In this document: piece after piece, positions 47,800 through 60,948 of the stretch
Layout: the number at the start of each line of letters is the position of its first letter
How positions within the stretch are numbered: the stretch's first letter is position 1
Origin: an uncultured Armatimonadia bacterium
GTDB taxonomy: Bacteria; Armatimonadota; Zipacnadia; CAVVLO01
Length of the DNA stretch: 64,000 nt
Direction of reading: 5' to 3'
Assembly (NCBI GenBank): GCA_963749155.1
Contig: CAVVLO010000002.1
Location: forward strand, 96,001 to 160,000
Translations under genes and position numbers: made by a program
The notes under the pieces: model-generated
What the model saw: the letters and a program-made list of their open reading frames with translations, nothing else
Databases searched by the model: none
What the model was told of the DNA's origin: nothing

Positions 47800-48819
47800 T
47801 TATTGCTTGGCGGCCCGGCTTTCGAAACGCAGCCTGTAGGTCCCGATCCCGAAAAGGTCGCCGGCCCGCAGGCTGCGACTTGTTACAGGCTGACCGTTCA
47901 CCAGCACAGGTTGTCCTGTGCCCAGGTCGCGCAAGGAGCAGCGCCCACTCTCGATTGTGAGTTCGCAATGGAAAGGCGCGACCGAGGGGTCTTTTATCAA
48001 GGTGATATCCGCCTTGGGCGAACTGCCCAGCCGCGTCACATGCTGGTAGAGGATGAACTGCTTGCCCGCAAGTGGACCAGTAAGCACATGCAACCAGAAG
48101 GTCTTGGCAGCTTGTTCGACCGCGCTGATAGCGACTCCCACCAGCAGGCCCATTACCGAGAAGCCAATCAGGCGCGACATAAGGCCGCCGCCGGTGACGA
48201 TGGCAAGGGGATCAAACAAGGCCCCTCCCAGGAAGCCACCGAGCAGCCCACCTATCAGGCCATTGAGGATGCGCTTGCCCGAAAGCCCAGGCAAGCCTTG
48301 CCCAAGCCCCACAAACAGCCCCACCAGTGCCCAGGCAAGCGCGCGCACGAAGAGCTGTGTAGCAGGATTGCCACCTTGCTCTCCGCCCCCAAGAGAGGTA
48401 TATGCAGCCTGGCCAACTACGCTGCCGAAGGCGCCCCCTGCCCCGCCAACCAGCAAACCGATGAGAGCGCCCTTCAGGGCCTTCTCCCAAACCCCGCTTC
48501 CCACGCCTTCGGTTGCTCCGAGCAGCAAGCCTATAGGCCCGCCAATTCCAAGGCCCAGAATCAGCATCTCCAGCATCGGGTTGAGCGCCGAGGCAGCTTC
48601 ATCCGAGATGAAAGGCTCCACCGCGCACCAGCTGAGGAAGCCCCCAATCAGACCTGCAAGTGCCCCAAGCAGCACTGGCGAGAAAAGCACCTGAGAAGCG
48701 CCAGACTTGCCTTTGCCGGAGCCCTCTCCCCAGCCAGGGCCTCCCCCAGCACCGACCTGATCGAAGAGATCGCCGTCATCCTTGAAATCATCACTTGTCA
48801 GTATAAGGCGGTCGGGCAC
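47800..48819 (-). CDS. Gly-rich multi-TM protein with C-terminal FHA domain
   Basis: About 6 GxxxG-rich helices, then GPLAGKQFIL...LGSSPKADI...HCEL...LRDLG...VNGQ...LRAGD..GIG. Confidence 0.82.
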   Translation of the reverse strand: MPDRLILTSDDFKDDGDLFDQVGAGGGPGWGEGSGKGKSGASQVLFSPVLLGALAGLIGGFLSWCAVEPFISDEAASALNPMLEMLILGLGIGGPIGLLLGATEGVGSGVWEKALKGALIGLLVGGAGGAFGSVVGQAAYTSLGGGEQGGNPATQLFVRALAWALVGLFVGLGQGLPGLSGKRILNGLIGGLLGGFLGGALFDPLAIVTGGGLMSRLIGFSVMGLLVGVAISAVEQAAKTFWLHVLTGPLAGKQFILYQHVTRLGSSPKADITLIKDPSVAPFHCELTIESGRCSLRDLGTGQPVLVNGQPVTSRSLRAGDLFGIGTYRLRFESRAAKQ

Positions 48820-49520
48820 TAGTCAAGCACACTCCTGGCTATGGCGTAACCCAGCTGCACAATTAGCTCTTTGAAATTCTTGGTAGAGTCGATGTCTGTG
48901 AAGGTACCGCCCGTCTTCTGCGCCAGCATCAGATAACCTTCAAGGGGCTTCGCGACGACATAACAGGCTAGCCCGCGCTCTTTCAATCCGGTCACTGCAT
49001 CCTCGAGTTTCAGCGTAGTGAAGTCTGTGCCGTCGCCAGCGGTGTGATAACCGGCATCACTAATCAGGATCAGCACTCGCTTGGCCTCGGGCCGGAAGGC
49101 CATCCGCGAGGCACTCATCAACGCTTCAAGCTGATTTTCGGGCTCATCCACGCCACCAACAGCTTGCTGGACGGCCAGCCAGGACTTGAACTCTCCAACA
49201 CTGGGGGTGAGGCTCAGGTCCTCGCGATACACCATCCTGACCTCATCACCGAAGGTCACCAGGCCAAATTTACAGTCTACGCCCTGACCGCTTAATAATT
49301 CGGAGAACTGTTCCGACGCAGCCAAAGTGCCATCGATCTCTTCTCTCATACTGCTGGTTGTGTCGAAAACAAAAACCACGTCCACTGGCTCGGGGCTGAA
49401 GGCCCCTCCCCGCCAGAAGAGCGCCAAAGCGATAAGCCCGGCCCAGCAGGCAACGATCAGCAGCCCAAGGGGAAGGTTGGCAAAGAGAGCTCGGTTGAAT
49501 TCTTTCAGAGAAAAACCCAT
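48819..49520 (-). CDS. Membrane-anchored von Willebrand factor A domain protein
   Basis: N-terminal TM; VDVVFVFDTTSSM (MIDAS-like), GGVDEPE, LILISDA. Confidence 0.88.
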   Translation of the reverse strand: MGFSLKEFNRALFANLPLGLLIVACWAGLIALALFWRGGAFSPEPVDVVFVFDTTSSMREEIDGTLAASEQFSELLSGQGVDCKFGLVTFGDEVRMVYREDLSLTPSVGEFKSWLAVQQAVGGVDEPENQLEALMSASRMAFRPEAKRVLILISDAGYHTAGDGTDFTTLKLEDAVTGLKERGLACYVVAKPLEGYLMLAQKTGGTFTDIDSTKNFKELIVQLGYAIARSVLD

Positions 49521-50635
49521 CAGAGCCCCTCCTTACCCTTGCCCTGGCGCACCCAGAAGACCAGCACTGTGTTGCCCACATGCAGCAAGGCGCCATCTCG
49601 CAGCCTGGCCGATGAGACAGGTTGCCCATCAAGCCCCACTTGAAGTCCTCGCTCGGCCTGCACCTGCCAGCCCGTGCCAGTATGCCGCAGGACGAAGTGA
49701 CGCTCTGCCAGGCCAGGTTCTTTCACCAGCCGCACATCCGCCTCAGGCGAGGAGCCCACCCAATTTTCGGGCTTGTGCAGTATGAACTGCTTACCCCGCA
49801 TCGAGCCTTTGGCCACAGCCAGCCAGGCCTGCTTGAAGACCTCGCCAGCAAGCCCCATCAGCAGTCCAACACAGGCGCCAAGAGCTAGCAGTGCAAGCAG
49901 TCTGCCCAGGCTTGAAGAAGCAACCGCGCCTTTGATAGCCTCAAAGGCGATGCCCCCCAGTAGTCCTCCCAGCGCCCCACCCAGCAGCCCATTGCGCAGC
50001 TTGGCTGCCGAGGTATGCAAAGCCGAACTGCCAATTCCCAGGAAGAAGCCCAGCACCGACCAGCCGACAGCTCGCACAAGTAACGCCGCGGCAGGCCCCA
50101 TAAGATGCCCAGTGGATGCGAACTGGTAAGCCCACTCGGCAAGCGCGCCGCCAAGCGCGCCTCCACAAGCGCCTATCAGCCCCCCCATAAAAGCGTGAGC
50201 CAGAGCCGAAGTGATATCTCCGAAAACCAGTTCCTCAAAACTGCTGAGGAAAAGCCCAATCAGAGCGCCCGCCACCAGGCCATATAAAGCCGTCCTGATT
50301 ATCAGGTCTCCTCCGAAGGAACTCGACCAGGCTAGCAGGATTATCTCTCCAAGCAGCCAGGCGCAAACCGCACCAAGTAGCCCGGCAACCAGCAGCAGGG
50401 CCGGCCTGAGAAGAGCGGAAGCACGACGCGGAGCCACCTCGGGTTTGGCCCAGGCCTCTACTGGAGGGCCAACCGAGGCGCCTGCCGGCTCGAAGACTTC
50501 CTCCTCGCTGAAGTCCTCTGCCCCGAGCACCAGCCTTCCAGAGGCCGGGGGAGGCGCAGGTTCCTCCTCGGCAAAGTCCTCGGAAGTCAACTCCAGTCGC
50601 TCTGGCAGCTCTTCCTTGTCGGGCGTATTGTCCAA
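49520..50635 (-). CDS. Gly-rich multi-TM protein with C-terminal FHA domain (paralog of 47800-48819)
   Basis: Same architecture: RAVGWSVLG, NGLLGGALGGLLGG, GKQFIL, VGSSPEADV, LRDG. Confidence 0.82.
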   Translation of the reverse strand: MDNTPDKEELPERLELTSEDFAEEEPAPPPASGRLVLGAEDFSEEEVFEPAGASVGPPVEAWAKPEVAPRRASALLRPALLLVAGLLGAVCAWLLGEIILLAWSSSFGGDLIIRTALYGLVAGALIGLFLSSFEELVFGDITSALAHAFMGGLIGACGGALGGALAEWAYQFASTGHLMGPAAALLVRAVGWSVLGFFLGIGSSALHTSAAKLRNGLLGGALGGLLGGIAFEAIKGAVASSSLGRLLALLALGACVGLLMGLAGEVFKQAWLAVAKGSMRGKQFILHKPENWVGSSPEADVRLVKEPGLAERHFVLRHTGTGWQVQAERGLQVGLDGQPVSSARLRDGALLHVGNTVLVFWVRQGKGKEGL

Positions 50636-50651
50636 ACCTTACTCCCTGGAC

Positions 50652-51443
50652 CTAGACTGTAGTATCGATTATTCCCTCACTGGCGAGTTTCTGGGCCATC
50701 TGGTCGCGCTTCTCATAACCGGCCTCAAGCGCGGCTTTACTGGCACTGCCGAGTCTGGGAAGTTCAGCAAGCGCCGCTTCATCCACCGGCACCAAGGCTT
50801 GTCTGGCAAGCCCATCAGGCCCGGCCAGGCCCATCAGTTGAAGCAGTTCTTTCATCCTGGCCTCGGTGCCTACAGGACCAAACAACCAAAATCCAACCCG
50901 TCGCAGTCCTTCAGGGCCTTGCTGGAAAGCGCCCAGCTTGCCTTGAACCGGGTCGTGTACCACCGCTACCTGGCCAGGGGCGCTGAAAAAATTCTGCTGG
51001 ATGAACTGGTCGAACTCACTGAGGAAAACCCCAAAGCCCGGATGCGTGTGATACCAGCCCATTATCTTGAGGCCAGGCCAGTTGGCGTCCAGTTCGGCGG
51101 AGAAGGCATTCCAGGTGGCATGGGTGAAGGTAATGTTGGTGTGAGTATGGGTTATATGCTGAGCGGGCAAAGCGTGCTCTAGCTCGATGGCCTCGAAGGG
51201 CGCCCCGCCCGGCAGCTGCCAACGCGAGCGCCTGCCGATTAACGCCCCCCCGAGTTCTCTGCTGCGGTCAGTCATACAGTGAGCGCGCATCGCCGATAAA
51301 GCGCTCAATTTGAAGAAAAGGGGTACCACTGCCGAGGCAGGTCGCTCATACTCGAATACCACCATATCGGTGGTCGCGCGCAGAGGCAACTCCTGCTTCG
51401 GAGCCGCCTCACTCAGGCTGATTTGGAAGTCTTTTTCCGCCAT
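50652..51443 (-). CDS. JAB/MPN+ (JAMM) metallopeptidase, soluble
   Basis: ELGGALIG ... GWYHTHPGFGVFLSEFD. Confidence 0.9.
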   Translation of the reverse strand: MAEKDFQISLSEAAPKQELPLRATTDMVVFEYERPASAVVPLFFKLSALSAMRAHCMTDRSRELGGALIGRRSRWQLPGGAPFEAIELEHALPAQHITHTHTNITFTHATWNAFSAELDANWPGLKIMGWYHTHPGFGVFLSEFDQFIQQNFFSAPGQVAVVHDPVQGKLGAFQQGPEGLRRVGFWLFGPVGTEARMKELLQLMGLAGPDGLARQALVPVDEAALAELPRLGSASKAALEAGYEKRDQMAQKLASEGIIDTTV

Positions 51444-51457
51444 AGCCTCTAACCGGG

Positions 51458-51997
51458 CTAACCGAGCTGGATGTCGAAATCGTCTCCACTGGGCGCTGGC
51501 GCCTGGGCCTCATCAAAGAAAACAATATCGATGTCTGGTTGCCGCAAGTCCACATTCTGCAACGGGAACCGGTTCCTGTTCAACTCTGACCAGCGCGCAG
51601 CTTCCGCGTTAAGGGGGCTTTTGGGATTATATTCCTGATAGGTCAGCATCTCGGCGACCTGATAAACGATGTCGACCAGAGTCTCACCGGCCGCCCAGTG
51701 GTCGCCGATGCAGATATAACTGCCAAAGTTGGGGTGCCAGACAGGATCCAGCATCACTGACTTGGGCTTCTCCCTTGGATAATCAGTGTGCAGATATATC
51801 TCGGCGCGGTGGACCTCCCTTGTGCGGATGTTGCCCTGCGCATCGCGCCAAAGCCCCTTAACCCGGTACGTAATCCGATACCGGTCAGGAGGATTGGCGG
51901 GACCAATCGGCTCCACCGTGATATAGGGGTGACCCGAGAACTCCTCTTGCACTCGGCTCCAGTCGGCGGCAAGTCGCCTGAGTCTTGCAACACTCAT
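51458..51997 (-). CDS. Ubiquitin-conjugating enzyme E2 (UBC fold)
   Basis: RLRRLAAD, DYPREKP, WHPNFGSYICIGDHW (HPN plus catalytic Cys), NPKSPLNAEAA. Confidence 0.92.
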   Translation of the reverse strand: MSVARLRRLAADWSRVQEEFSGHPYITVEPIGPANPPDRYRITYRVKGLWRDAQGNIRTREVHRAEIYLHTDYPREKPKSVMLDPVWHPNFGSYICIGDHWAAGETLVDIVYQVAEMLTYQEYNPKSPLNAEAARWSELNRNRFPLQNVDLRQPDIDIVFFDEAQAPAPSGDDFDIQLG

Positions 51998-52026
51998 CTA
52001 CTTCCTCCTGCCTGAATAAAAAACTA

Positions 52027-52947
52027 CTAGCGTTTTATCATACCAAGTAAGCCGGCTGCATTGACCAAAACCGCTTGTGCCTGCCCATATTCATACGAAA
52101 ATTGCTGTAAGGCACCAACGTTTGCGGCCATCTCGGCCCGGCGCAGGTGAGTAACCGCACTTTGCACCTGGCCGACAAACTGCAGTCTCATTGGATTATC
52201 ACGCCCTAGCTGCACCAAAGGCTCGAGTAAGGCTTCACCTGCCTGACGCTCTCCTTCGGCCCTTGCCTGATCGCCCAGGCTCCAATGCTGGGTGGCCAGA
52301 TTGAGGTGATTCAAAGCCTCATCAGCAATTGCCACGAACCTCGACTCATCGAGGAAAGCCGAACCAGCCAGTCCAATAATAATAATTACAACAGCTACAG
52401 CCATTACCGCAAGCACGCCAAAAGCTACCTGGGGACTAGCGCGCCGGCTAGTTGGCCTGGGCCAGCCAGGAGCTGGACGCGCCCATTGGGGAACAGGCCG
52501 GTTGCCCGGCGCGGTCGGCATTACCGGTCGCTGCCCCTGATTTTGGCGCACCTGGGGCGAATTCTCGCACCCATAGGTCGTACAACCGCCGTTCTCCTGC
52601 CAGCATTCCTCGTGATGGGGGATACCGCAGGTAGGACAAACGATACTCCTCTCCCCAGCATCTATTTCGCACTGACAATAAGGACAATTTCTACCTTTCG
52701 TTGGACTGGCCTCGGACTTCATCTCCACAGGTTCGCCTGGCTCATCGAAGGGAATGGGCGCTGGCGCCGTTTGGGTTGGCCCCAGAGTTATTAGCACCTC
52801 GTCATCCTGGTCTAGTGAAGGCAAATCTGATACGCGTGGCCGTGCAAGCGAGGTCTCGAATATCTCCCCGCATACCGGACACATATAAGGAGCAGGCCCT
52901 GCGTCTCGAAACTCGCGCCTGCATCTTGGACAGACAAGCTCAGCCAT
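52027..52947 (-). CDS. Zn-ribbon plus prokaryotic RING (Prok-RING_1-like) plus TM plus external helical domain; candidate E3
   Basis: CPRC/CPVC; CPYCQCEI...CPTCGIPHHEECWQENGGCTTYGC; TM. Confidence 0.82.
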   Translation of the reverse strand: MAELVCPRCRREFRDAGPAPYMCPVCGEIFETSLARPRVSDLPSLDQDDEVLITLGPTQTAPAPIPFDEPGEPVEMKSEASPTKGRNCPYCQCEIDAGERSIVCPTCGIPHHEECWQENGGCTTYGCENSPQVRQNQGQRPVMPTAPGNRPVPQWARPAPGWPRPTSRRASPQVAFGVLAVMAVAVVIIIIGLAGSAFLDESRFVAIADEALNHLNLATQHWSLGDQARAEGERQAGEALLEPLVQLGRDNPMRLQFVGQVQSAVTHLRRAEMAANVGALQQFSYEYGQAQAVLVNAAGLLGMIKR

Positions 52948-52953
52948 ATATCC

Positions 52954-53640
52954 TCAGTCGGGCACCTGCTCTGATGCTTCGCTTCGGCCGGTCCTCAAAG
53001 GGGCTGGTTGGCCTCTCGCGTTGCATCCGTATGCGGCACAGCCTGCATTTTCGCTCCAGCAGTCGAAATGATGAGGCAGTCCGCACTTGGGGCAAAACAA
53101 CACCACATCGCCTCGCTCGAAAGGGCTCAGGCAGTAGGCACAAATCTGCCCTGCCACTTCGTCGCCAGCTATCACGAGGTCATAACCTGAATGCCTGAAA
53201 CTCGATGCTACTCCTGTATTGCGCGCGGTCTTGATATGAACGAACAACTGCTGTCCCTGGGGCGACACCAGATGCCACAAGACCAGGCCCCACAGTATAG
53301 AGACAAGCGTCATTGCGCCCAGGGCGAATCCCTGCCAGAGACCGTACGAGAGCCCACCCCAGACTGCAAGCCAGAGCGTAAAAATCCCTGACAGTATGCC
53401 GCTGAAAGGGTCTTCGGAATCGATAACCACATCGCGCAGCTCGGTCCAGGTCACTCGCCGACGCCGCGCAAGTATCACTGGCACAGCGAGCGCCACCAGC
53501 ACTCCCGCCAGGAGGAGCGGCCAGGCGAACACCGTTCCAATGAGCGAGGCGCCCAAGGCGATAAATCCGCCAGAAGCCACGAACAGCAACGCGAAGGCAA
53601 GACCTCCGCGCAGCTCCCTGGAGCCAGACTGACTGCGCAC
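52954..53640 (-). CDS. Four-TM protein with C-terminal prokaryotic RING; candidate E3
   Basis: CAYCLSPF...CPKCGLPHHFDCWSENAGCAAYGC. Confidence 0.82.
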   Translation of the reverse strand: MRSQSGSRELRGGLAFALLFVASGGFIALGASLIGTVFAWPLLLAGVLVALAVPVILARRRRVTWTELRDVVIDSEDPFSGILSGIFTLWLAVWGGLSYGLWQGFALGAMTLVSILWGLVLWHLVSPQGQQLFVHIKTARNTGVASSFRHSGYDLVIAGDEVAGQICAYCLSPFERGDVVLFCPKCGLPHHFDCWSENAGCAAYGCNARGQPAPLRTGRSEASEQVPD

Positions 53641-53718
53641 TATACTCCACCGGGCACAGGCGGCCTTAGCTGGCCTGACGCGCCCCCTCTATCATATCAA
53701 ACAGGTGGCGTGTAGGGG

Positions 53719-54351
53719 CTACGTTCCGACCAGAGAAGGCAATCCGCAACACAGGCACGTAAAGAGCAGTATCACCAGTGAGTACACCAGCAGGCTGCGA
53801 CCAAAAGCTCTATCCTCAGGATGGCGCTGCCCCATCAGGATTGCGCCGCCGACAATTCCAGCAAGAGGGCCGATCCCGGTAAAAGCCAGCAGCAGAACCA
53901 TTATGTAGAAAATAGTCCTGACTGCCGCCGGGATCGCCGGCTGTGGCCTCGTCCCTCTGGCAGACCCCCTGTCCCACTGGTCGCCCCGCTGGTCGGACGG
54001 ATAGGGATAGGGCGGCGCCTCTGGACTACGCGGAGCAGTAGGTTCGGTGCGCCCAGCCAGAGCGCGCGCCTGAGGGCTTTCGCTGCAGCCATAAGTTGTG
54101 CAACCCTCGTTCTCTCGCCAGCATTCGAGGTGATGCGGGGTAGCGCAAACTGGACAGCTATGAGTCTGATCTGAAGGGCCAATCTCACTTTGGCAATACG
54201 GACAGAGTTTGCCCACTACGCTTGCTGGCGCCTCTGGCTGGCGAGGGGCTGCGGGCTGCCTTGTAAACATCAACTGGCAATGGGGGCAGAAGTGCATCTC
54301 CCCCGGCTCGTCCTCAAAATTCTGGTTGCAGCGTGGGCACTGGACCTGCAA
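53719..54351 (-). CDS. Zn-ribbon plus prokaryotic RING plus two TMs; candidate E3
   Basis: CPRC/CPHC; CPYCQSEI...CPVCATPHHLECWRENEGCTTYGC; TTG start with AGGAG RBS. Confidence 0.82.
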   Translation of the reverse strand: MQVQCPRCNQNFEDEPGEMHFCPHCQLMFTRQPAAPRQPEAPASVVGKLCPYCQSEIGPSDQTHSCPVCATPHHLECWRENEGCTTYGCSESPQARALAGRTEPTAPRSPEAPPYPYPSDQRGDQWDRGSARGTRPQPAIPAAVRTIFYIMVLLLAFTGIGPLAGIVGGAILMGQRHPEDRAFGRSLLVYSLVILLFTCLCCGLPSLVGT

Positions 54352-54369
54352 GTAGCAGTTCTCCTTACA

Positions 54370-55059
54370 CTAGCTCTTGAGCCATAAGGCAAAGCCGCGC
54401 AGTAACGCCAGTTCTACCACTCCAAGCAAAATCAGCAACCCCAGGGTGCGCAAGGGAGCTTTCCTCAGCATACTGATGCCCGAGGTACGTCTGTCATGCA
54501 GCGCGAGCGCTGCCAGGTTGATTAGCGCCCCTGCAAGGAGCACCCCAAGCAAACTGAGTCCATCGAGCACAATCCAGCCTGGTCTGATAAGCAATACCAA
54601 CAGGCTGACCCCAGCCAGTGTAACCAGACCAAGCCCAAAGGGTTCCCAGACAGATTTGAACATTGGGCGCCGCGGGGGCCTGGCCGGGGCATGGTTAATA
54701 ATAACCAGCAGCAGACTGGCCAGGGCAGGCCCGGCGAAAGCCCCTGTTGCCAAACGGGTCAGGTTGTCAGTTTCTCTGAAGCCCAGACCAGCAGAAATAG
54801 CATCCAGCCCCATCGGTGCAAGTAAAGCCAGCAAGGCAAGCATACGCCAGACATCGCCTGGATAGTCGGCTTTCGCGCGCCCAAGTGCAGCCAGAAGGAG
54901 CACTCCGACAACAAGTCCCAGATGCACTCCCGTGCAACGCGCGCAGAGGGCCAGTTGCACTTCGCCAGGAGCGAAGGAGTGGCTGGGCATCCGATGGCAT
55001 AAACAGGCGCCTAGCTGATCAGCGCTTTGCCGAAACAACTCGACCCACTCGGGAGCCAC
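54370..55059 (-). CDS. DUF2085 family membrane protein
   Basis: LCHRMPSHSF...LCARCTGVHLG, PMGLD, NLTRLATG. Confidence 0.85.
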   Translation of the reverse strand: MAPEWVELFRQSADQLGACLCHRMPSHSFAPGEVQLALCARCTGVHLGLVVGVLLLAALGRAKADYPGDVWRMLALLALLAPMGLDAISAGLGFRETDNLTRLATGAFAGPALASLLLVIINHAPARPPRRPMFKSVWEPFGLGLVTLAGVSLLVLLIRPGWIVLDGLSLLGVLLAGALINLAALALHDRRTSGISMLRKAPLRTLGLLILLGVVELALLRGFALWLKS

Positions 55060-55061
55060 AA

Positions 55062-56074
55062 TTACGTCCCAGCCGGCTGCTCGCCGCTCGCAGGAAGAAT
55101 CAGTAACCGCCCTGGCAACAATCTGTCAGGATTCACAATCCCATTCAGCCTGGCAATTTCCACCCAGCGCTCGCGAGCCCCGAGTTTTTGCTCCGCTATA
55201 CTGCTTAAGGTATCGCCGGCGCTACCTGATAGATTTGGTAAACCGCCTCGGCTTGGGGTTGAACGGCAGTTGGAGCAGGCTCGGTCTGTACGCCCGCAGC
55301 AATCGGTGGAGGGAGCTTGGCCAGTTCAGCCTGGGCCGCATAGAGTTTGATTTTTACATCTGACAATTCAGTTTCCAGACGCTGGACCCTGGTTGTCAGC
55401 GCAAGCAGCAGCACGCAGGCAGCCAGCAAGAGCGCCCAGGGAGCCCAGAGGGCCAACCTCGAGGCCGGTTGCGCAGCCGGCTGAAGGGCCTCGGGCGCCA
55501 GCCCCTCGTGCACCAGGTGATAGCCGGGCAGCAGTTCAGGCCCTGAGTCGGTATTTCCGAAAAAGCCTTGTTCTTTGGCCCGAGGGTCGTAAACCAGCGC
55601 CACCTGAGAGGGCATATTGAAAAAATTGCCCTGGATAAAAAGGTCGTGACCTGACAGGAATATGCCGAATCCAGGATGAGAGTGCACCCAGCCGACGACT
55701 TTCTGGTCAGGATAGTCGGCTTCCAGTACCTCATAAATGTGGTTCCAGGCTTCGTGGGTGAAGGTAAGGCTGGCTCTGCGCGAGTCGGCGCCCTCGGCGG
55801 CGATCATCCCAGTCACATGGATGTGCCAGCGCCCGCGCTTTTCGTGGGAAGTACCCACTAGCACCCCGCCCAGCTCATTGGAGAGATCCTGACTAAGGCA
55901 GGCGACGATCTGATCCCAGACCGGGGCGTCCAGATAGACTTGTACGCGCGCGGACTCAGGCTGTCCAATAGCCTCGCAGTGTTCGGGAGCAGGCAGTTTG
56001 GAGGCAGAGCCTCCCCCGCCCTCTACGGCAGGGGCAAGCTCTAATTCGAAGCCTTCTTCGTTGTTATCAGTCAT
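55062..56074 (-). CDS. JAB/MPN+ peptidase plus TM plus coiled coil plus LysM (frameshift near 55217)
   Basis: ELGGVLVG, GWVHSHPGFGIFLSGHD; TM; restoring one base gives YQVAPGDTLSSIAEQKLGARERWVEIARLNGIVNPDRLLPGRLLILP, with stop at 55062. Confidence 0.85.
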
Positions 56075-56078
56075 CTGA

Positions 56079-57410
56079 TCAGATTCTCGACAGGTTGCGC
56101 TGGATACTGGCAGGCTTGCGTTTATGCTCGAGGCGAGGCTCCATACTGGTCGCCAGCGCCCCAAGGGCGCGAGCGCGATCCGCGGCCAACAAGTAATGCT
56201 TCATCTCGAGTCCTACCCGCGCGGTCACGATGTCGTAGAGGGGCAGGCCAATCTCAGCCAGTGTCATATCGCCGAACTCTTCGGTCCCGCTGTAGGTATG
56301 AGCCAGCTCGGTATCGCGCGCTTCTCCACAGCCCGGGCACCTGGCATCTTTTTCGGACAGTCTGCCAAGCAGTTTGAAAACAGGTTCTCTTGTTCCGCAC
56401 TTTTGGCACAGGAAGGCCGCAACCAGCTCGCGGTCCAGTTCTACCAGCGCCTCAGGTCCCAGATCAGTTCTGGCCCGTTCCAGCAAAGCGTTGAAGGTCA
56501 GGTCAGCGACTCCAGCTTCAAGGGGGATTACTTCCTCAAAGGTAAAATGGGACAGGCAATCTTCTTTCCTTGGATAGTCTACAAGGAAAGAATCGTGAGT
56601 CAGCCCGTTAAAGACCCAGCCCTTGCCGTAAAGCACAGGGAGTTCGGGGCGAGCGTGCAAAAGTTTTAACGCCTCCAGCACTTGTACACCTGCCACGATG
56701 GAAGCACTGGTTGGAGTTGTCGGCACCTTCCCCTCGAGCAACTGGTCCCGGCTGAGCAGAGCGCAGGACTTGCGAGCCGCCAGCAGCTTGGTGTCGAATT
56801 CGTTCATCGTGCATTCATAGCAAGACGAGTCCGGTGGCACAAAAACTCGCGCGATGCCATTCAACACTTCTATGGCGCCATCTATCCAGGGAGTGTTTAC
56901 CTTCCAGCAGGCCTGGTTGATACCGAGTCTGGCCTCCCGGTTGTCAAGCCCGCCGAGGACGACATCCATCTCCAGGAAAACGCCAAGCCCAATATCGGTC
57001 AGCACATTGCCCTGCACCGCGTGAACCGCACAGTCAGGGTTGATTTCCCTGACTGTTTCAGCAGCCACTTCGGCCTTCGGGCGTCCCTCGTCTTCGACCC
57101 GGAATAAAACCGAACGCGTAAGGTTGGAATGCTCTACCGTATCGAGATCAAGCACCAGCAGATTGCCCACGCCAAGCAAAGCGAGATTCTTGAGCAGCTC
57201 GTTTCCAAGCGCGCCGGCGCCTACAATCAGCACCGAAGAAGCTTTGAGCAGAGTTTGATCCCACCAGGGCACGAGGAAGAAACGCGCATAACGGCTGGCT
57301 TCTTCCTCCATACTGACAGTGAGAGGCCCGCCTTCCGCGTCCTTGCCCGAAGGCGCGGGCGCGGGGCCTTCTACAGCAGCCCCGAGCTCAATATCAAAGT
57401 CATCACTCAT
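56079..57410 (-). CDS. E1 ubiquitin-activating-like enzyme (ThiF family with C-terminal extension)
   Basis: VGAGALGNELLKNLALLGVG, DLDTVEHSNLTRSVLFR, GLDNREAR, CYEC, candidate catalytic Cys in RKSCALL. Confidence 0.92.
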   Translation of the reverse strand: MSDDFDIELGAAVEGPAPAPSGKDAEGGPLTVSMEEEASRYARFFLVPWWDQTLLKASSVLIVGAGALGNELLKNLALLGVGNLLVLDLDTVEHSNLTRSVLFRVEDEGRPKAEVAAETVREINPDCAVHAVQGNVLTDIGLGVFLEMDVVLGGLDNREARLGINQACWKVNTPWIDGAIEVLNGIARVFVPPDSSCYECTMNEFDTKLLAARKSCALLSRDQLLEGKVPTTPTSASIVAGVQVLEALKLLHARPELPVLYGKGWVFNGLTHDSFLVDYPRKEDCLSHFTFEEVIPLEAGVADLTFNALLERARTDLGPEALVELDRELVAAFLCQKCGTREPVFKLLGRLSEKDARCPGCGEARDTELAHTYSGTEEFGDMTLAEIGLPLYDIVTARVGLEMKHYLLAADRARALGALATSMEPRLEHKRKPASIQRNLSRI

Positions 57411-57413
57411 CTG

Positions 57414-57683
57414 CTAACCAGCCGTGACTTCTGGCTGCAACCGCATCACGTCGCCATCCTTCACGCCAGCGTCGGCAAGGCTTTCGTCGTCCGTAAGTTG
57501 CTTGCCCGACTGCTTGTGGACCACTTTGTAAGAGAGCGGTTGGCCGTCAGGGCCGGTCGCCGGCAGTTTCATCATCTGCACAAGCTTGGCAACAATACGA
57601 CGCACCGCTACATCATCCGGCACGGTCGCCTGCTGTTCTTTGTTGCCAGTTACATCAATTATGGTCACGTTGACCTGTCCCAC
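57414..57683 (-). CDS. Ubiquitin-like beta-grasp protein (YukD/EsaB-like) ending in Gly
   Basis: VNVTIID...VPDD...GKQLTDDESLADAGVKDGDVMRLQPEVTAG-stop; GTG with AGGAGG RBS. Confidence 0.9.
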   Translation of the reverse strand: MGQVNVTIIDVTGNKEQQATVPDDVAVRRIVAKLVQMMKLPATGPDGQPLSYKVVHKQSGKQLTDDESLADAGVKDGDVMRLQPEVTAG

Positions 57684-57695
57684 TGCTGGCCTCCT

Positions 57696-58706
57696 TTAGT
57701 GAAGCTGGATGTCTATATCATCCAAATTTTCTTCTGGTTCTTCGCGTGGCGCCTGAGGTTGCGGGGTTGTCGGCCCGCCGAAATGGATCTCGGGCTCAGG
57801 CCCCACCTCCTGCGGTTGGACTGGCTGCTGGCCTGGCATCGGAGTGTGCGGGCCTTTCTTCATGAACAGCCAGGTGATTACCGTTGCAATCGCCATTATG
57901 ATGAATATGACAAGTACCCAAACCGCCGGATTGGCGGGAGGCTTTTCTTCGGCTGGCACTTCAGGCACATCGGTCTCAGGAGGGCTGGGAGTCTCGCCCG
58001 CCGGAGGCCTGGCGCCTTCGACAAGCTTAAGGCTGAATTGCTTATGACTTGGGACTACCAGGGCTGAGACGCCTTGCTGATTGAGCAGCTTCAACAAGTC
58101 GTTGCTTGGCAGGGCAAAGCCCATACCCTGGGCGCCTTTCAGTACGCGCACAGCTACCCCCAGCACCTCGCCCTGCGAGTTGAGCAGCGGTCCACCACTG
58201 TTGCCAGGATTTAGCGCCGCATCTGTCTGCAGGAATGGCTGGTCCTTTTCTTCCGAAGGCAAGGAGCTGATGATGCCCCGAGTAGCCGAATCGATGGCAA
58301 AAGGCGAACCAATCGCAACGACTGAATCGCCCTGCTTTACGCTTGCCGAATCGGCAAGGGCCAGTGCAGGCGAATTGTCCACCGGGACTTTCAGCAACGC
58401 CACGTCGGCCTTCTCATCCCGGAAGGTTACCTGGGCCTGGGTCTTCTTCTTGCCGTATAACTCGACATCCACCATCGGATGCCCGCCTACGACATGCGCG
58501 CAGGTCACCGCGACGCCATCGGTGTTGATGAAGAAACCAGTGCCAATCCGTTGCTTGCCCTCTTCATCTACCGAGACCTGAAGGACAGCTGGTTTGGCTC
58601 CTTCAATCAGGGCAGGGGTCGGCTTGTCACCAGACTGACAGAAGGCCGGTAAGCCTGAAATCGTTATCCAGCCAGTAAGGAGCATTGCGAGCACTAGCCA
58701 CTTCAT
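57696..58706 (-). CDS. Membrane-anchored trypsin-like (HtrA-type, no PDZ) serine protease
   Basis: Signal peptide; GTGF, TCAHVV, DVALL, TDAALNPGNSGGPL; C-terminal TM and acidic cytoplasmic tail. Confidence 0.9.
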   Translation of the reverse strand: MKWLVLAMLLTGWITISGLPAFCQSGDKPTPALIEGAKPAVLQVSVDEEGKQRIGTGFFINTDGVAVTCAHVVGGHPMVDVELYGKKKTQAQVTFRDEKADVALLKVPVDNSPALALADSASVKQGDSVVAIGSPFAIDSATRGIISSLPSEEKDQPFLQTDAALNPGNSGGPLLNSQGEVLGVAVRVLKGAQGMGFALPSNDLLKLLNQQGVSALVVPSHKQFSLKLVEGARPPAGETPSPPETDVPEVPAEEKPPANPAVWVLVIFIIMAIATVITWLFMKKGPHTPMPGQQPVQPQEVGPEPEIHFGGPTTPQPQAPREEPEENLDDIDIQLH

Positions 58707-58812: not shown

Positions 58813-60948
58813 CTAGAGGCCGCCCTGTATCACCCAGTCGAGAGCTGGCTCGGGCTTGCGTTTGCCTGTTGCGTAGTCATAGATGGCCAGGTTCACCAGC
58901 CTGGCTGCCCTGACAAGCTCTATATAGGGCCTGTCAGCGACATCAACAAATCCGATATTGTAGTTCTCTCCATCGAACCGCCCAGTGAGCGGTTGGTCTG
59001 CATATTCGAACCAATGGACGCCTACCAGATTGGGCAGAGCCGCGGCGCTTGAAACATAATGAGCGTAGGCCTGGGCGCGCTCAGGCTGCGACGCGACTGG
59101 ACGCAGTCCGCCTGCAAGCCCACTGTCGAGTGCCCCAAAATGGAACTCTCCCCCGATAAAAGGTTTACGCGCCAGTTCGTAAAACTGCTGAGCCTGCTCA
59201 GGATTTATCTCATACAGATAGGGGTTGAAGGACACTACATCACAGTATTCTCCTGCGGCTTTGATGGCTTCTTCCGAATAGGCGGCAAAACGCGCGCCCA
59301 GATAAAGATGACCGGGATCGTGACGCTTGAGTACTGCGCGAACGGTACGGAAATACTGCCGGGCAAATTCAAGCAGATAGACGCCGAGGTCAGCCTTGGC
59401 AGCCTCCGGAAGCTCGCGCACCTCGACAGGCGCGTCTTGCCTGAAAGCCTCGAAGCTTGCGAAACTGGTGCCCCAGGCCGCATTGAGGCGCGCCAGGTCC
59501 TGGCCATAAGTGGCAAAGAGCTGTCTCATAAGCGCGCGCCTGGCGAAGGACTTCTCCGGCAAGGCCAGTACCTGAGAGGCCAAATCCAGTTTGCCTGCTT
59601 CGTCCCAGCCTGCCCAAGGTAGTTCATTATCGAAAAAGTAACCGAGTATCCAGGGATCGGCGGCAAGCTCCTCCAGTTGAGACGCAAAGCTGGCCTCAAG
59701 CTGTTTTGCGAACTCGGGATCAAAGGGATCAGGCATACGTTCATTTACTTTGGGTACCCCGCCTGGAGTGCCCAGAGCGACCACATAAGCCGTCCTGCCG
59801 CGAGTTTGGAAGTCTCGGTCCGACCAGTTGCCAATTGTGTTGAAGCCCCAGGCGCGCAGCCGGTCGAGGCTGACCCGGATCCAGCTTTCGCGCCACTCAG
59901 GCCCATATTTACGAATCAGGTTGGCGGTGTAGAGGCTGACCCGATTGGGATCTCCCCAGCCTGCAGTGCGCGCTGGTCCGAAAGTGGCATCCTCCAGGGC
60001 AGGCAGCCACTTGAAAAGAGCCTCTCTGCCCGAGAGGGGGGTTGCGGTGTCGCCAAGCCCCATCACGTCCATCCCGACCGACCAGAACAGCCGCCCCTCG
60101 GGATCGACCAGCCACCAGCGCCCACCATGCTGAGTGGTTCGGAAGCGTCCGGTGGCCTCAAGCTTGGGGCCAGCCGCCCAACCGCCATACTTGTCGAGCC
60201 AGGCCGGGAGCATCACCTGGGCGAGCTGCCGGGCTTCTCCCTCAGCCTGAAGACGCAATTGACCGTCCGACTCGACCTTCACCTCAGCCGACAGAAAGCC
60301 GGGTTGTCCGAACTCATCCAGCAGCCAACTGGGCGCCTGACCTTTTACCAAACCTGCCCTCTCGACCAGCAGCTTGCAGGATTCGGTTGGATTTACCAGG
60401 AAGAGCACCAGCCGCATCATCCGCTGCCAGTAGATGGGTGGCCCGTAAAGCTGGCGCGGGATGAAGCCCTCTCCTGCCATTGGAGGCCAGCGCATCGCCT
60501 CATCCGTCCAGGTTGTAGCAAGGCGGATCCGGCTCAGGCGATGGGGCAGCAAGTAGAATTCGAACGTCTTCCAGCCTTCCTTGCCATCAGAGCCAAGCGA
60601 ATCAAGACGCAGGTGAACAAGCTGAGGCCTCGTAGAGGGATTCCATATTTCGAGTTCAAAAGCTGGGGCCTTCGTCCAGTCAGTCTCCAACCCAAGGGCC
60701 GAAAATTCCAGCGACAATCCGGGATATTCGGCCGGCTGGAAGGTAACTTCGACGACCTGCCCTCCGGCTGGCGCCTCGACAAGTCGGGCGGTCGAACTGG
60801 AAAAACTGGCCGCCTCCAGCAGCTCTTGTCCAGCCAGCGAGAAGGCCAGCGCGCTTGGGGAGAGGGCAAAAAGCAGTAATAAGACGGTCCAGCAAGCCTT
60901 CAAGACAATCCCCCCCAAGCCTGGCTGAAAGGTTAATTCGTGTTCCAC
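58813..60948 (-). CDS. Secreted GH50 (beta-agarase-like) glycoside hydrolase
   Basis: GRWWLVDPEG, WGFNTIGNWSD, GYFFDNEL, GEFHFGA, HWFEYADQPLTGRFDGENYNIG. Start codon uncertain. Confidence 0.85.
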   Translation of the reverse strand: MEHELTFQPGLGGIVLKACWTVLLLLFALSPSALAFSLAGQELLEAASFSSSTARLVEAPAGGQVVEVTFQPAEYPGLSLEFSALGLETDWTKAPAFELEIWNPSTRPQLVHLRLDSLGSDGKEGWKTFEFYLLPHRLSRIRLATTWTDEAMRWPPMAGEGFIPRQLYGPPIYWQRMMRLVLFLVNPTESCKLLVERAGLVKGQAPSWLLDEFGQPGFLSAEVKVESDGQLRLQAEGEARQLAQVMLPAWLDKYGGWAAGPKLEATGRFRTTQHGGRWWLVDPEGRLFWSVGMDVMGLGDTATPLSGREALFKWLPALEDATFGPARTAGWGDPNRVSLYTANLIRKYGPEWRESWIRVSLDRLRAWGFNTIGNWSDRDFQTRGRTAYVVALGTPGGVPKVNERMPDPFDPEFAKQLEASFASQLEELAADPWILGYFFDNELPWAGWDEAGKLDLASQVLALPEKSFARRALMRQLFATYGQDLARLNAAWGTSFASFEAFRQDAPVEVRELPEAAKADLGVYLLEFARQYFRTVRAVLKRHDPGHLYLGARFAAYSEEAIKAAGEYCDVVSFNPYLYEINPEQAQQFYELARKPFIGGEFHFGALDSGLAGGLRPVASQPERAQAYAHYVSSAAALPNLVGVHWFEYADQPLTGRFDGENYNIGFVDVADRPYIELVRAARLVNLAIYDYATGKRKPEPALDWVIQGGL

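What the first reader, a model, noticed from the sequence alone, without database searches (positions are those of the whole stretch)
51411..57722. Shared acidic-hydrophobic SIM-like motif on non-homologous components of the operon
Seen: E1 N-terminus DDFDIELG (57381-57404), E2 C-terminus DDFDIQLG-stop (51461-51484), protease cytoplasmic tail DDIDIQLH-stop (57699-57722), JAB-LysM N-terminus EEGFELELA, soluble JAB N-terminus EKDFQISLS, and RING protein linker DQDDEVLITLG. There are extra copies in E2 (PDIDIVF) and the protease (EPEIHFG). All lie in terminal or linker segments, mostly Pro-rich and likely disordered. The E1 and E2 copies use different synonymous codons (gat gac ttt gat att vs gac gat ttc gac atc), which points to protein-level selection rather than recent DNA duplication. 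Established: SUMO-interacting motifs are short hydrophobic beta-strands flanked by acidic residues that add to a beta-grasp fold. Inference: this is a bacterial Ubl-interacting or common docking motif that assembles the pathway.
Basis: partly seen in the sequence, partly recalled or inferred. Interest (0 to 1): 0.9.

Follow-up and report, generated by a model that had tools for sequence, protein, structure and literature searches.

The report
Shared docking peptide, bacterial ubiquitin system
The enzymes of a bacterial ubiquitin-like tagging system all carry the same short acidic peptide on a floppy chain end, most likely a handle for gripping the small tag protein, much as SUMO and UFM1 enzymes do in our own cells.

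Summary
The minus-strand operon at 47800-58706 encodes protease, Ubl, E1, JAB, DUF2085, three Prok-RING proteins, E2, JAB, FHA, vWA and FHA. E1 (N-end), E2 (C-end), the protease tail (C-end) and the soluble JAB (N-end) carry D-D-h-D-I-x-L. In the window's own genome, 25 of 3680 ORFs reach the motif score; 4 of these are among the 12 operon ORFs. Only 5 hits lie at a chain end, and 4 of those are in the operon.

The motif is conserved in related operons of Armatimonadota, Clostridia and other phyla: protease 43/47, E2 32/60, JAB 24/94, Ubl 0/65, unrelated ORFs 4/826. Among the best E1 homologues, 42/120 carry it. It was not found in 38 Planctomycetota regions.

Five-gene operons without FHA, vWA or protease keep the motif. 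The receptor is therefore Ubl, E1 or RING, or lies outside the operon.

A Ubl receptor is favoured but not shown. The complex prediction gave weak support (0.33 against a best control of 0.02). The F-x-I-x-L spacing equals the W341-I343-L345 spacing of UBA5's UFM1-binding sequence. All 68 motif-bearing operons have Lys/Arg at Ubl position 33.

I found no paper describing this motif. The scan noted the same motif earlier on other DNA (e1-1116239).

The parts
57381..57404 (-). Motif copy at the E1 N-terminus (residues 3-10, DDFDIELG)
   Evidence: Matrix score 23.4, the highest in the genome. 42 of 120 best E1 homologues score 12 or more in their first 30 residues. Residues 1-28 have pLDDT below 50 in the E1 monomer model.
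51461..51484 (-). Motif copy at the E2 C-terminus (DDFDIQLG, then stop)
   Evidence: Score 16.7. Short E2 orthologues end in the motif plus one residue.
51518..51538 (-). First, weaker E2 copy just after the UBC core (PDIDIVF)
   Evidence: Score 3.9. Orthologues have QP-D-[IV]-E-I-x-L at the same place, and Clostridial E2 fusions have DFDIDL at about residue 163.
57699..57722 (-). Motif copy at the C-terminus of the protease's tail beyond its membrane helix (DDIDIQLH, then stop). Cytoplasmic placement is inferred.
   Evidence: Score 17.4. 43 of 47 proteases in related loci score 12 or more; by regex, 41 of the 47 have the motif within 25 residues of a chain end, and the printed tails carry it 1-2 residues before the stop. 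14 of 15 do so in the Armatimonadota sample.
57777..57797 (-). Second, weaker copy in the protease tail (EPEIHFG)
   Evidence: Not significant alone. Tails of L001-L004 and L065 have ALDITLH, EPEIVLS, TLEITLG, PLDITLR and APEVSLF at the matching place.
51411..51437 (-). Motif copy at the N-terminus of the soluble JAB (EKDFQISLS)
   Evidence: Score 13.3. 24 of 94 JAB proteins in related loci score 12 or more; by regex, 31 of the 94 have the motif within 25 residues of a chain end, at residues 2-16 in the printed cases.
56033..56059 (-). Diverged copy at the N-terminus of the membrane JAB (EEGFELELA)
   Evidence: Score 5.1. Armatimonadota orthologues have DLEISL, DINVEL, DLGVEL, DLELEI and DLDISL at residues 7-16.
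52780..52812 (-). Diverged copy in the linker of RING protein 3 (DQDDEVLITLG)
   Evidence: Score 5.1. The RING of L001 has DLDIEL at residue 65 (score 17.5), and the RING of L149 has DLDIDF (score 14.8). Only 1 of 80 RING proteins in the first set reaches 12.
57414..57683 (-). Ubl, 89 residues ending TAG: the proposed receptor
   Evidence: Pfam YukD, 2.8e-13. AlphaFold2 gives a beta-grasp with pLDDT 91.7. The nearest solved fold is Caldiarchaeum ubiquitin. 0 of 65 Ubls carry the motif. Complex prediction with E1 residues 1-30: 0.33 against 0.02.
56079..57410 (-). E1 (ThiF adenylation domain plus a Cys-rich C-terminal domain)
51458..51997 (-). E2 (UBC fold, HPN...C)
57696..58706 (-). Trypsin-like protease with an N-terminal hydrophobic segment (read as a signal peptide), one membrane helix and a tail
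   Evidence: The topology is inferred from the sequence.
55205..56074 (-). JAB with a membrane helix. The LysM domain follows in another frame, down to about 55062.
50652..51443 (-). Soluble JAB
52027..54351 (-). Three Prok-RING_1 membrane proteins (53719-54351, 52954-53640, 52027-52947)
54370..55059 (-). DUF2085 membrane protein, without the motif
47800..50635 (-). FHA membrane protein, vWA membrane protein and a second FHA membrane protein. None has motif A. The FHA proteins carry a different N-terminal motif B (50573-50599, 50510-50536, 48784-48810).

Best explanation
The motif ([DE]-D-[F/I/L]-[D/E]-I-[E/D/Q]-[L/I]) is a short linear docking peptide on flexible chain ends and linkers of the pathway proteins, which I place in the cytoplasm. 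I think it binds the system's own ubiquitin-like protein non-covalently. This would probably occur on the beta1/beta2/helix-1 side, leaving the C-terminal tail and the enzyme-binding face free.

Each protein that must handle the Ubl would then hold it by a second, low-affinity contact: E1, E2, at least one JAB protease and some RING proteins. So would the tail of the membrane protease. E2 tails have two or three copies and protease tails two, which could bind several Ubls or chains.

Shown here: the motif exists, is conserved, sits at chain ends, lies in a segment predicted to be unstructured, and is absent from the Ubl.

Inferred: the receptor, the binding site, and the consequence (tethering or assembly at the membrane).
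For: 1. Conservation.
- Matrix score of 12 or more in protease 43/47, E2 32/60, JAB 24/94, E1 3/74, RING 1/80, and FHA-labelled 3/17 (by length, position after E1 and N-terminal sequence these three look like E2-membrane-FHA fusions).
- The same score is reached by Ubl 0/65 and unclassified ORFs 4/826; one of those four is a cut protease tail.
- 42/120 best E1 homologues carry it.
- 14 of 15 proteases in a separate Armatimonadota sample carry it.

2. Narrowing the receptor.
- Five-gene operons L034, L046 and L066 (Ubl, E1, E2, JAB-LysM, RING), and L074 with the same gene order, lie among housekeeping genes. They keep the motif on the E2 C-end and the JAB N-end. They encode no FHA, vWA or protease within the stretches I scanned.
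- Among Ubl, E1 and RING, only the Ubl never carries the motif in any lineage.

3. Complex prediction.
- Input was the Ubl alignment with E1 residues 1-30. The score (ipSAE) was 0.33 as the median of 0.33, 0.31 and 0.34; the best of 3 controls was 0.02. The verdict was 'weak support'.
- The partner's pLDDT was at least 54, and the runs agreed in at least 91% of contacts.
- The tool's calibration: 116 of 157 solved complexes and 2 of 215 mismatched pairs reached the mark. At scores of 0.60 or under, only 18 of those 157 did, and so did both mismatches that passed.

4. Same spacing as a proven Ubl-binding peptide. UBA5 uses Trp341, Ile343 and Leu345 of a disordered extension to bind UFM1 (PMC5428781, passages; PMC8304084, passages).

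5. The E1 N-end is not docked on E1 itself: residues 1-28 have pLDDT below 50 and no strand.

6. Ubl position 33 (helix 1) is Lys/Arg in 68 of 68 motif-bearing operons and non-basic in 21 of 25 operons without the motif.
Against: - The complex score is in the range where the tool says a pass is 'more often wrong than right unless the guess was likely beforehand'. No contacts were given. Solved UFM1-UBA5 and SUMO-SIM complexes could produce a pass from memory.
- Only one pairing was tested. RING and E1 as receptors were never modelled in trans.
- The position-33 correlation may reflect a single evolutionary event. 15 Ubl columns separate motif-bearing operons from the Planctomycetota ones, so column 33 is not singled out.
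- Four operons have Lys/Arg33 without the motif. L032 and L058 are incomplete loci; L131 and L135 have diverged Ubls.
- L059 has a near-threshold JAB copy (MSDIDVRLL, 11.5) although its Ubl has Val at position 33.
- The Clostridial E1 lacks the N-terminal copy (3/74), so a handle on E1 is not essential.
- Nothing here measures binding.
Confidence: 0.5

Rival explanations
1. The motif is a docking peptide for a different shared receptor in the core system: the Prok-RING membrane protein or the E1 (in trans, for example its C-terminal domain). That receptor would gather E2, JAB and protease at one membrane site.
For: The conservation evidence is the same. RING (1/80) and the Clostridial E1 (3/74) almost never carry the motif, and both are present in the minimal operons. 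An E2 needs a way to reach an E1, and I did not identify a ubiquitin-fold domain in this E1. UBA5 recruits its E2 through a second short peptide (PMC8304084, passages).
Against: E1 carries the motif in 42/120 close homologues and some RING proteins carry it (scores 17.5 and 14.8), so either would be binding its own ligand. The E1 monomer model does not dock it. The one pairing tested with the Ubl scored above its controls. These pairings were not modelled.
Confidence: 0.25
2. The motif marks proteins as substrates. It recruits charged E2~Ubl or the E3 so that nearby lysines of the pathway's own components and of the protease tail are modified (self-regulation), like SIM-dependent SUMOylation.
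For: Clostridial protease tails and E2 linkers are Lys-rich just before the motif (for example kkkrkdkyDFEIEI and tpkkDFDIDL). This is compatible with Ubl binding, of which it is a special case. SIM-dependent SUMOylation is recalled from my own knowledge, not from a call.
Against: The lysines follow a membrane helix and may only reflect the positive-inside rule. Armatimonadota tails are Pro/Gln-rich with few lysines. There is no evidence of modification.
Confidence: 0.12
3. The copies pair with each other (strand-to-strand, perhaps bridged by metal ions), clustering the components without a dedicated receptor.
For: An alternating hydrophobic and acidic pattern is typical of an amphipathic strand. 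Copies occur in tandem. Bacterial Ubl filaments held by calcium are known in other systems (10.1101/2024.11.21.623966, passages).
Against: The copies are strongly acidic, so they would repel one another. Nothing was tested. The E1 monomer model gives no strand.
Confidence: 0.06
4. The resemblance is chance, or the composition of acidic disordered tails, or a recent DNA copy.
For: Acidic tails are common. RpoC of the same genome has EELDLELG in its acidic tail.
Against: Only 5 chain-end hits occur in 3680 ORFs, and 4 of them are in the operon. The chain-end or linker placement is conserved across phyla. Background is 4/826. The codons differ.
Confidence: 0.02

Closest known systems
UBA5 UFM1-interacting sequence (UIS, also called LIR/UFIM), residues 334-348 of the human UFM1 E1
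   Same: - It is a short peptide in a disordered extension of a homodimeric ThiF-type E1.
- It has the same spacing of three hydrophobic residues: Trp341-x-Ile343-x-Leu345 against Phe-Asp-Ile-Glu-Leu.
- It binds the pathway's own Ubl away from the C-terminal tail and supports activation in trans.
(PMC5428781, passages; PMC8304084, passages.)
   Different: - Here the copy sits at the N-end of E1, not the C-end.
- It is also present on E2, JAB proteases, some RING proteins and a membrane protease, often in tandem.
- The first hydrophobic residue is Phe, Ile or Leu rather than Trp.
- Binding is not measured.
- The full letters of the UBA5 peptide did not appear in any passage I read. The residue numbers did.
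SUMO-interacting motifs on SUMO pathway enzymes (SAE2 C-terminus, SENP proteases, SUMO E3s)
   Same: - These are acidic-flanked hydrophobic strands in flexible extensions of the E1 and of proteases.
- They bind the beta2/helix-1 groove while the catalytic domain holds another face of the modifier.
- A 2025 review says that similar grooves in ATG8, UFM1 and ATG12 bind linear motifs, and that no prokaryotic system is yet known to share this feature.
(PMC12687455, passages.)
   Different: - The SIM core is a run of adjacent hydrophobic residues (consensus recalled, not from a call). Here hydrophobic and acidic residues alternate.
- The Ubl is nearest to Caldiarchaeum ubiquitin, with ubiquitin, SUMO1 and NEDD8 all close behind.
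- Whether it has a groove was not examined.
Prokaryotic Ubl-E1-E2-RING-JAB operons predicted by comparative genomics (Burroughs, Iyer and Aravind 2011), and the Caldiarchaeum subterraneum operon
   Same: The domain set is the same: Ubl, ThiF E1, UBC E2, Prok-RING_1 and JAB. The Ubl's nearest solved fold is Caldiarchaeum ubiquitin, at 28% identity. Such 'tri-ligase' systems are cited in PMC7159879 (passages).
   Different: The operon kind is known. The shared peptide is the new element. The 2011 paper is not held, so I know it only from reference lists and recall, and cannot say whether it mentions the motif.
Canonical LIR/AIM ([W/F/Y]-x-x-[L/I/V]) of ATG8 partners
   Same: An acidic run precedes an aromatic residue, and binding is by strand addition to a Ubl (PMC10183829, passages).
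   Different: The residue three places after the aromatic one is Asp or Glu in 83% of the 103 instances, so the LIR pattern is not met.

Membership tests
Prokaryotic Ubl-E1-E2-RING-JAB conjugation operon | Beta-grasp Ubl ending in Gly, next to a ThiF-type E1 | tested here: met
   Pfam YukD 2.8e-13 and ThiF 1.3e-52. The Ubl model has pLDDT 91.7 and a beta-grasp fold. The ...TAG end is invariant in 35 aligned Ubls.
Prokaryotic Ubl-E1-E2-RING-JAB conjugation operon | UBC-fold E2 with HPN and a catalytic Cys | tested here: met
   Pfam UQ_con 1.1e-08. HPNFGSYIC is read. PDB matches are to UBC4/UbcH5.
Prokaryotic Ubl-E1-E2-RING-JAB conjugation operon | Prok-RING_1 finger proteins and a JAB peptidase with H-x-H...D | tested here: met
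   Three Prok-RING_1 hits and two JAB hits. HTHPGFG...SEFD and HSHPGFG...SGHD are read.
UBA5-type Ubl-interacting sequence (UIS, LIR/UFIM) | Three hydrophobic residues spaced h-x-I-x-L | tested here: met
   UBA5 has Trp341, Ile343 and Leu345. In the motif, position 1 is F 52% / I 18% / L 16%, position 3 is I 82%, and position 5 is L 52% / I 38%, from 103 instances.
UBA5-type Ubl-interacting sequence (UIS, LIR/UFIM) | Lies in a disordered extension of the E1 | tested here: met
   E1 residues 1-28 have pLDDT below 50. The extension is N-terminal here and C-terminal in UBA5.
UBA5-type Ubl-interacting sequence (UIS, LIR/UFIM) | Binds the cognate Ubl on the beta2/helix-1 side | tested here: inconclusive
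   The complex prediction scored 0.33 against a best control of 0.02, 'weak support', with no contacts given.
UBA5-type Ubl-interacting sequence (UIS, LIR/UFIM) | Required for Ubl activation or transfer | not testable with these tools
   This needs enzyme assays.
SUMO-interacting motif (SIM) | A core of three or four adjacent V/I/L residues (consensus recalled) | tested here: not met
   Hydrophobic residues alternate with Asp/Glu.
SUMO-interacting motif (SIM) | Acidic flank and disordered context | tested here: met
   Positions -3, -1 and 0 are mostly Asp/Glu. pLDDT is below 50.
Canonical LIR/AIM | [W/F/Y]-x-x-[L/I/V] | tested here: not met
   The position three residues after the aromatic one is E 49% or D 34%.

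The most novel reading that the evidence does not exclude
Recognition of a ubiquitin-like protein by a short linear peptide is usually treated as a eukaryotic elaboration (SIM, LIR/AIM, UFIM). On this reading it already exists in bacteria as a system-wide code. One acidic strand peptide would be written on E1, E2, E3, the deconjugating protease and a transmembrane protease, often in tandem. It would hold the Ubl or Ubl chains and assemble the whole cascade at the membrane. The helix-1/beta2 binding surface would then predate eukaryotes.
Probability: 0.4. Interest if true: 0.8.

Novelty: new variant of a known kind. Interest (0 to 1): 0.65.

Why it matters
A 2025 review of SUMO-enzyme contacts states that none of the prokaryotic systems found so far shares SUMO's motif-binding groove. 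It also suggests that the grooves of SUMO, ATG8, UFM1 and ATG12 may be inherited from a common ancestor (PMC12687455, passages). A conserved peptide of UBA5-like spacing on nearly every enzyme of a bacterial ubiquitin-like system makes that question directly testable, using small soluble proteins and 8-residue peptides.

It also gives a practical handle on an operon family that I found only as a computational prediction in the papers I read; an earlier scan note likewise found no bacterial test. The motif predicts which proteins belong to the system and which ends I infer to face the cytoplasm. It points to peptide mutants that should uncouple the cascade. It may help to find partners or substrates outside the operon.

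Tried and rejected
- FHA, vWA, DUF2085 or the protease as the common receptor: rejected. The scanned neighbourhoods of L046 and L066 hold no FHA, vWA or trypsin-like domain, and L034 shows the same gene order without them. L074 shows the same gene order. All four keep the motif on E2, and L046, L066 and L074 on JAB at 12 or more (L034's JAB copy EVGFEIELG scores 7.5).
- Docking of the E1 N-end on E1 in cis: not seen in the monomer model.
- Recent DNA duplication: rejected by the differing codons.
- A second Ubl system in the same genome: none found, only an orphan RING on contig C3.
- A contrast within Planctomycetota (some operons with the motif, some without): none found. All 38 regions scored under 12, with a maximum of 9.2. 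Crude ORF calling missed many genes there.
- The many E2 regex hits at about residue 62 (rhEVEITLhadyp) are a core strand of the UBC fold, not the motif.
Only the narrower comparison stands.
- Burroughs et al. 2011 could not be read.
- Five literature searches listed no paper that describes the motif, judged from titles and abstracts and from passages of five of the listed papers. This is not proof that none exists. Supplements were not consulted.
- Look-up of earlier notes around this place: nothing.

Full report
**What is in the window**

Thirteen tightly packed ORFs lie on the minus strand between 47800 and 58706. In order, Pfam names them as follows:
- a trypsin-like protease (57696-58706);
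- an 89-residue YukD-like Ubl ending TAG (57414-57683);
- a ThiF E1 (56079-57410);
- a JAB protein with a membrane helix (55205-56074);
- a DUF2085 protein;
- three Prok-RING_1 proteins;
- a UBC E2 (51458-51997);
- a soluble JAB (50652-51443);
- an FHA membrane protein, a vWA membrane protein and a second FHA membrane protein.

By sequence, E1 is nearest to the active adenylation domains of eukaryotic UBA7, UBA1, UBA3 and SAE2, and E2 is nearest to UBC4/UbcH5. The Ubl folds as a beta-grasp (AlphaFold2, pLDDT 91.7). Its nearest solved structure is Caldiarchaeum ubiquitin at 28% identity, followed by ubiquitin, SUMO1 and NEDD8.

This is the known, computationally predicted RING-type bacterial Ubl operon (PMC7159879, passages). 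The 2011 paper that defined it is not held.

**The observation**

The E1 and E2 copies do use different codons at all five of the compared positions.

I tested chance in the window's own 4.17-Mb genome.
- A strict regex hits 23 times in 3680 crude ORFs, 3 of them in the operon.
- A matrix built from 103 instances in other genomes reaches 12 in 25 ORFs, 4 of them among the 12 operon ORFs (8e-7).
- Only 5 hits lie within 12 residues of a chain end, and 4 of those are in the operon (3e-10).
- The other hits are internal.

Orthologues support them at the same positions.

The JAB frame stops at 55205, and a clear LysM domain continues in another frame down to the DUF2085 start.

**Conservation**

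Most of the 120 best E1 homologues (51-71% identity) begin with D-D-L-D-I-Q-L or a close variant, followed by a variable linker. 42 of the 120 score 12 or more in their first 30 residues. Among those with an N-terminal extension of at least 25 residues, 39 of 67 do.

A scan of one genome per species returned 80 loci in Armatimonadota, Clostridia, Planctomycetota and a few other phyla. Counts at a matrix score of 12 or more:

| Protein class | With motif / total |
|---|---|
| protease | 43/47 |
| E2 | 32/60 |
| JAB | 24/94 |
| E1 | 3/74 |
| RING | 1/80 |
| FHA-labelled | 3/17 |
| Ubl | 0/65 |
| unclassified ORFs | 4/826 |

- The three FHA-labelled hits look like E2-membrane-FHA fusions by length, position after E1 and N-terminal sequence.
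- One of the four unclassified hits is a cut protease tail.

Placement is fixed:
- one or two residues before the stop of the protease;
- residues 2-16 of one JAB;
- just after the UBC core, or at the very end of E2.

Short E2 tails hold two or three tandem copies. Several protease tails hold two.

In Clostridia the E2 is fused, after the motif, to a multi-pass membrane part and an FHA domain.

In a separate sample of the window's own phylum, 50 of 401 genomes hold the Ubl. 14 of 15 proteases there end in the motif. A subgroup without a protease has D-D-h-x-I-x-L-G on E2 and JAB.

In Planctomycetota, 36 of 301 genomes hold a Ubl. None of the 38 regions fetched reaches 12.

**Which protein receives the motif**

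Three to four loci (L034, L046, L066 and L074 with the same gene order) carry only Ubl, E1, E2, JAB-LysM and RING. They sit between oxidoreductase genes and CstA/GlmM, with no FHA, vWA or protease nearby. Their E2 still ends in the motif (scores 13.8-17.8), and the JAB of L046, L066 and L074 begins with it; L034's JAB copy is weaker (7.5).

The receptor is therefore Ubl, E1 or RING, or a protein outside the operon. Of the three, E1 and RING carry the motif themselves in some lineages. The Ubl never does.

The single complex job (Ubl alignment with E1 residues 1-30) scored 0.33 (runs 0.33, 0.31, 0.34) against 0.02 for the best of three controls. The partner's pLDDT was at least 54, and at least 91% of contacts were shared between runs. 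The tool calls this weak support. 116 of 157 solved complexes and 2 of 215 mismatches reach its mark. At 0.60 or under, only 18 of the 157 do, along with both passing mismatches. No contacts were given, and a pass may come from memory of similar solved complexes.

The E1 monomer model leaves residues 1-28 unstructured, so the peptide does not fold back on E1.

Ubl position 33, in helix 1, is Lys or Arg in 68 of 68 operons with the motif. It is non-basic in 21 of 25 operons without it. The exceptions are L032 and L058 (incomplete loci) and L131 and L135 (diverged Ubls).

This is suggestive only.
- 15 Ubl columns separate the motif-bearing operons from the Planctomycetota ones, among them 3, 18 and 33, which are basic only where the motif exists.
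- The pattern could stem from one evolutionary event.
- L059 is a partial counter-example.
- A wider per-column test was not run.

**Comparison with known systems**

UBA5, the UFM1 E1, binds UFM1 through a peptide in its disordered tail. There Ile343 and Leu345 fill hydrophobic sites and Trp341 sits at the turn (PMC5428781, passages). This supports activation in trans within the dimer (PMC8304084, passages). The spacing W-x-I-x-L equals F-D-I-E-L here.

In the SUMO pathway, the E1 subunit SAE2 and the SENP proteases carry SIMs on flexible extensions (PMC12687455, passages). So the logic of a modifier-binding peptide on the modifier's own enzymes is established.

The motif fails the strict SIM and LIR patterns. 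I file it as a new variant of Ubl-interacting peptides, not as a member of either family.

**Status in print**

Five full-text searches and passages of the bacterial-ubiquitination papers I opened show no description of this motif.

I used that as a lead and checked the residue spacing in the paper myself.

**Verdict**

That the Ubl is its receptor is the best-supported reading, at about even odds. RING or E1 is the main rival.

Noticed in passing
window 55060-55230 (minus strand): The JAB membrane gene stops at 55205. A LysM domain (GDTLSSIAEQKLG...NPDRLLPGRLLILP) continues in another reading frame to about 55062, just before the DUF2085 start. This is an apparent one-base frameshift, either an assembly error or a real break. 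Orthologues have JAB, membrane helix and LysM in one frame.
   Followed up: partly
window 50573-50599, 50510-50536 (FHA protein 1) and 48784-48810 (FHA protein 2): The FHA membrane proteins begin with a different conserved peptide, h-x-[IL]-[TSG]-x-[DE]-D-[LF]: RLELTSEDF, RLVLGAEDF, RLILTSDDF. Planctomycetota have DIIITDDELKDP, and Armatimonadota have KLIITSDDLL. A regex finds it in the first 60 residues of 9/17 FHA-labelled ORFs against 6/826 unclassified ones.
   Followed up: partly
G000 contig C1 521589-526862 (outside the window): The RNA polymerase beta-prime subunit of this genome has a long acidic C-terminal tail containing EELDLELG, 26 residues from the end. Whether this is chance or a link to the Ubl system is open.
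   Followed up: no
L003, L007, L016, L034, L046, L066, L074 (E2 tails); L001-L004, L065 (protease tails): The motif comes in two or three tandem copies separated by short linkers. This recalls the multi-SIM readers of SUMO chains (a recalled comparison).
   Followed up: partly
L008, L017, L021, L036, L038, L049, L052, L069, L076: Many Ubl genes run on past the TAG end. The extension ranges from 1-6 extra residues to a whole zinc-ribbon membrane protein or a large extracellular protein, so the Ubl would have to be cut out. The window's Ubl ends exactly at TAG.
   Followed up: no
L002, L003, L004, L035, L047, L063 (gene upstream of the protease): Some Armatimonadota operons have a second E2 paralogue upstream of the protease that lacks the motif. 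The window has none. Its upstream gene (58813-60948, 711 residues) has no Pfam match and has five paralogues in the genome.
   Followed up: no
L103, L107, L112, L116-L118, L127, L135, L137, L138: Planctomycetota and Armatimonadota also hold several much more diverged Ubl types next to E1, E2 and JAB genes (for example ...LDQTGAKS... and ...TIILPTGGT...). All lack the motif.
   Followed up: partly
window 47803-48822 (+): A 339-residue ORF lies exactly antisense to the second FHA gene. It is rich in Pro, Arg and Ala, and is most likely a shadow frame of a GC-rich gene.
   Followed up: no
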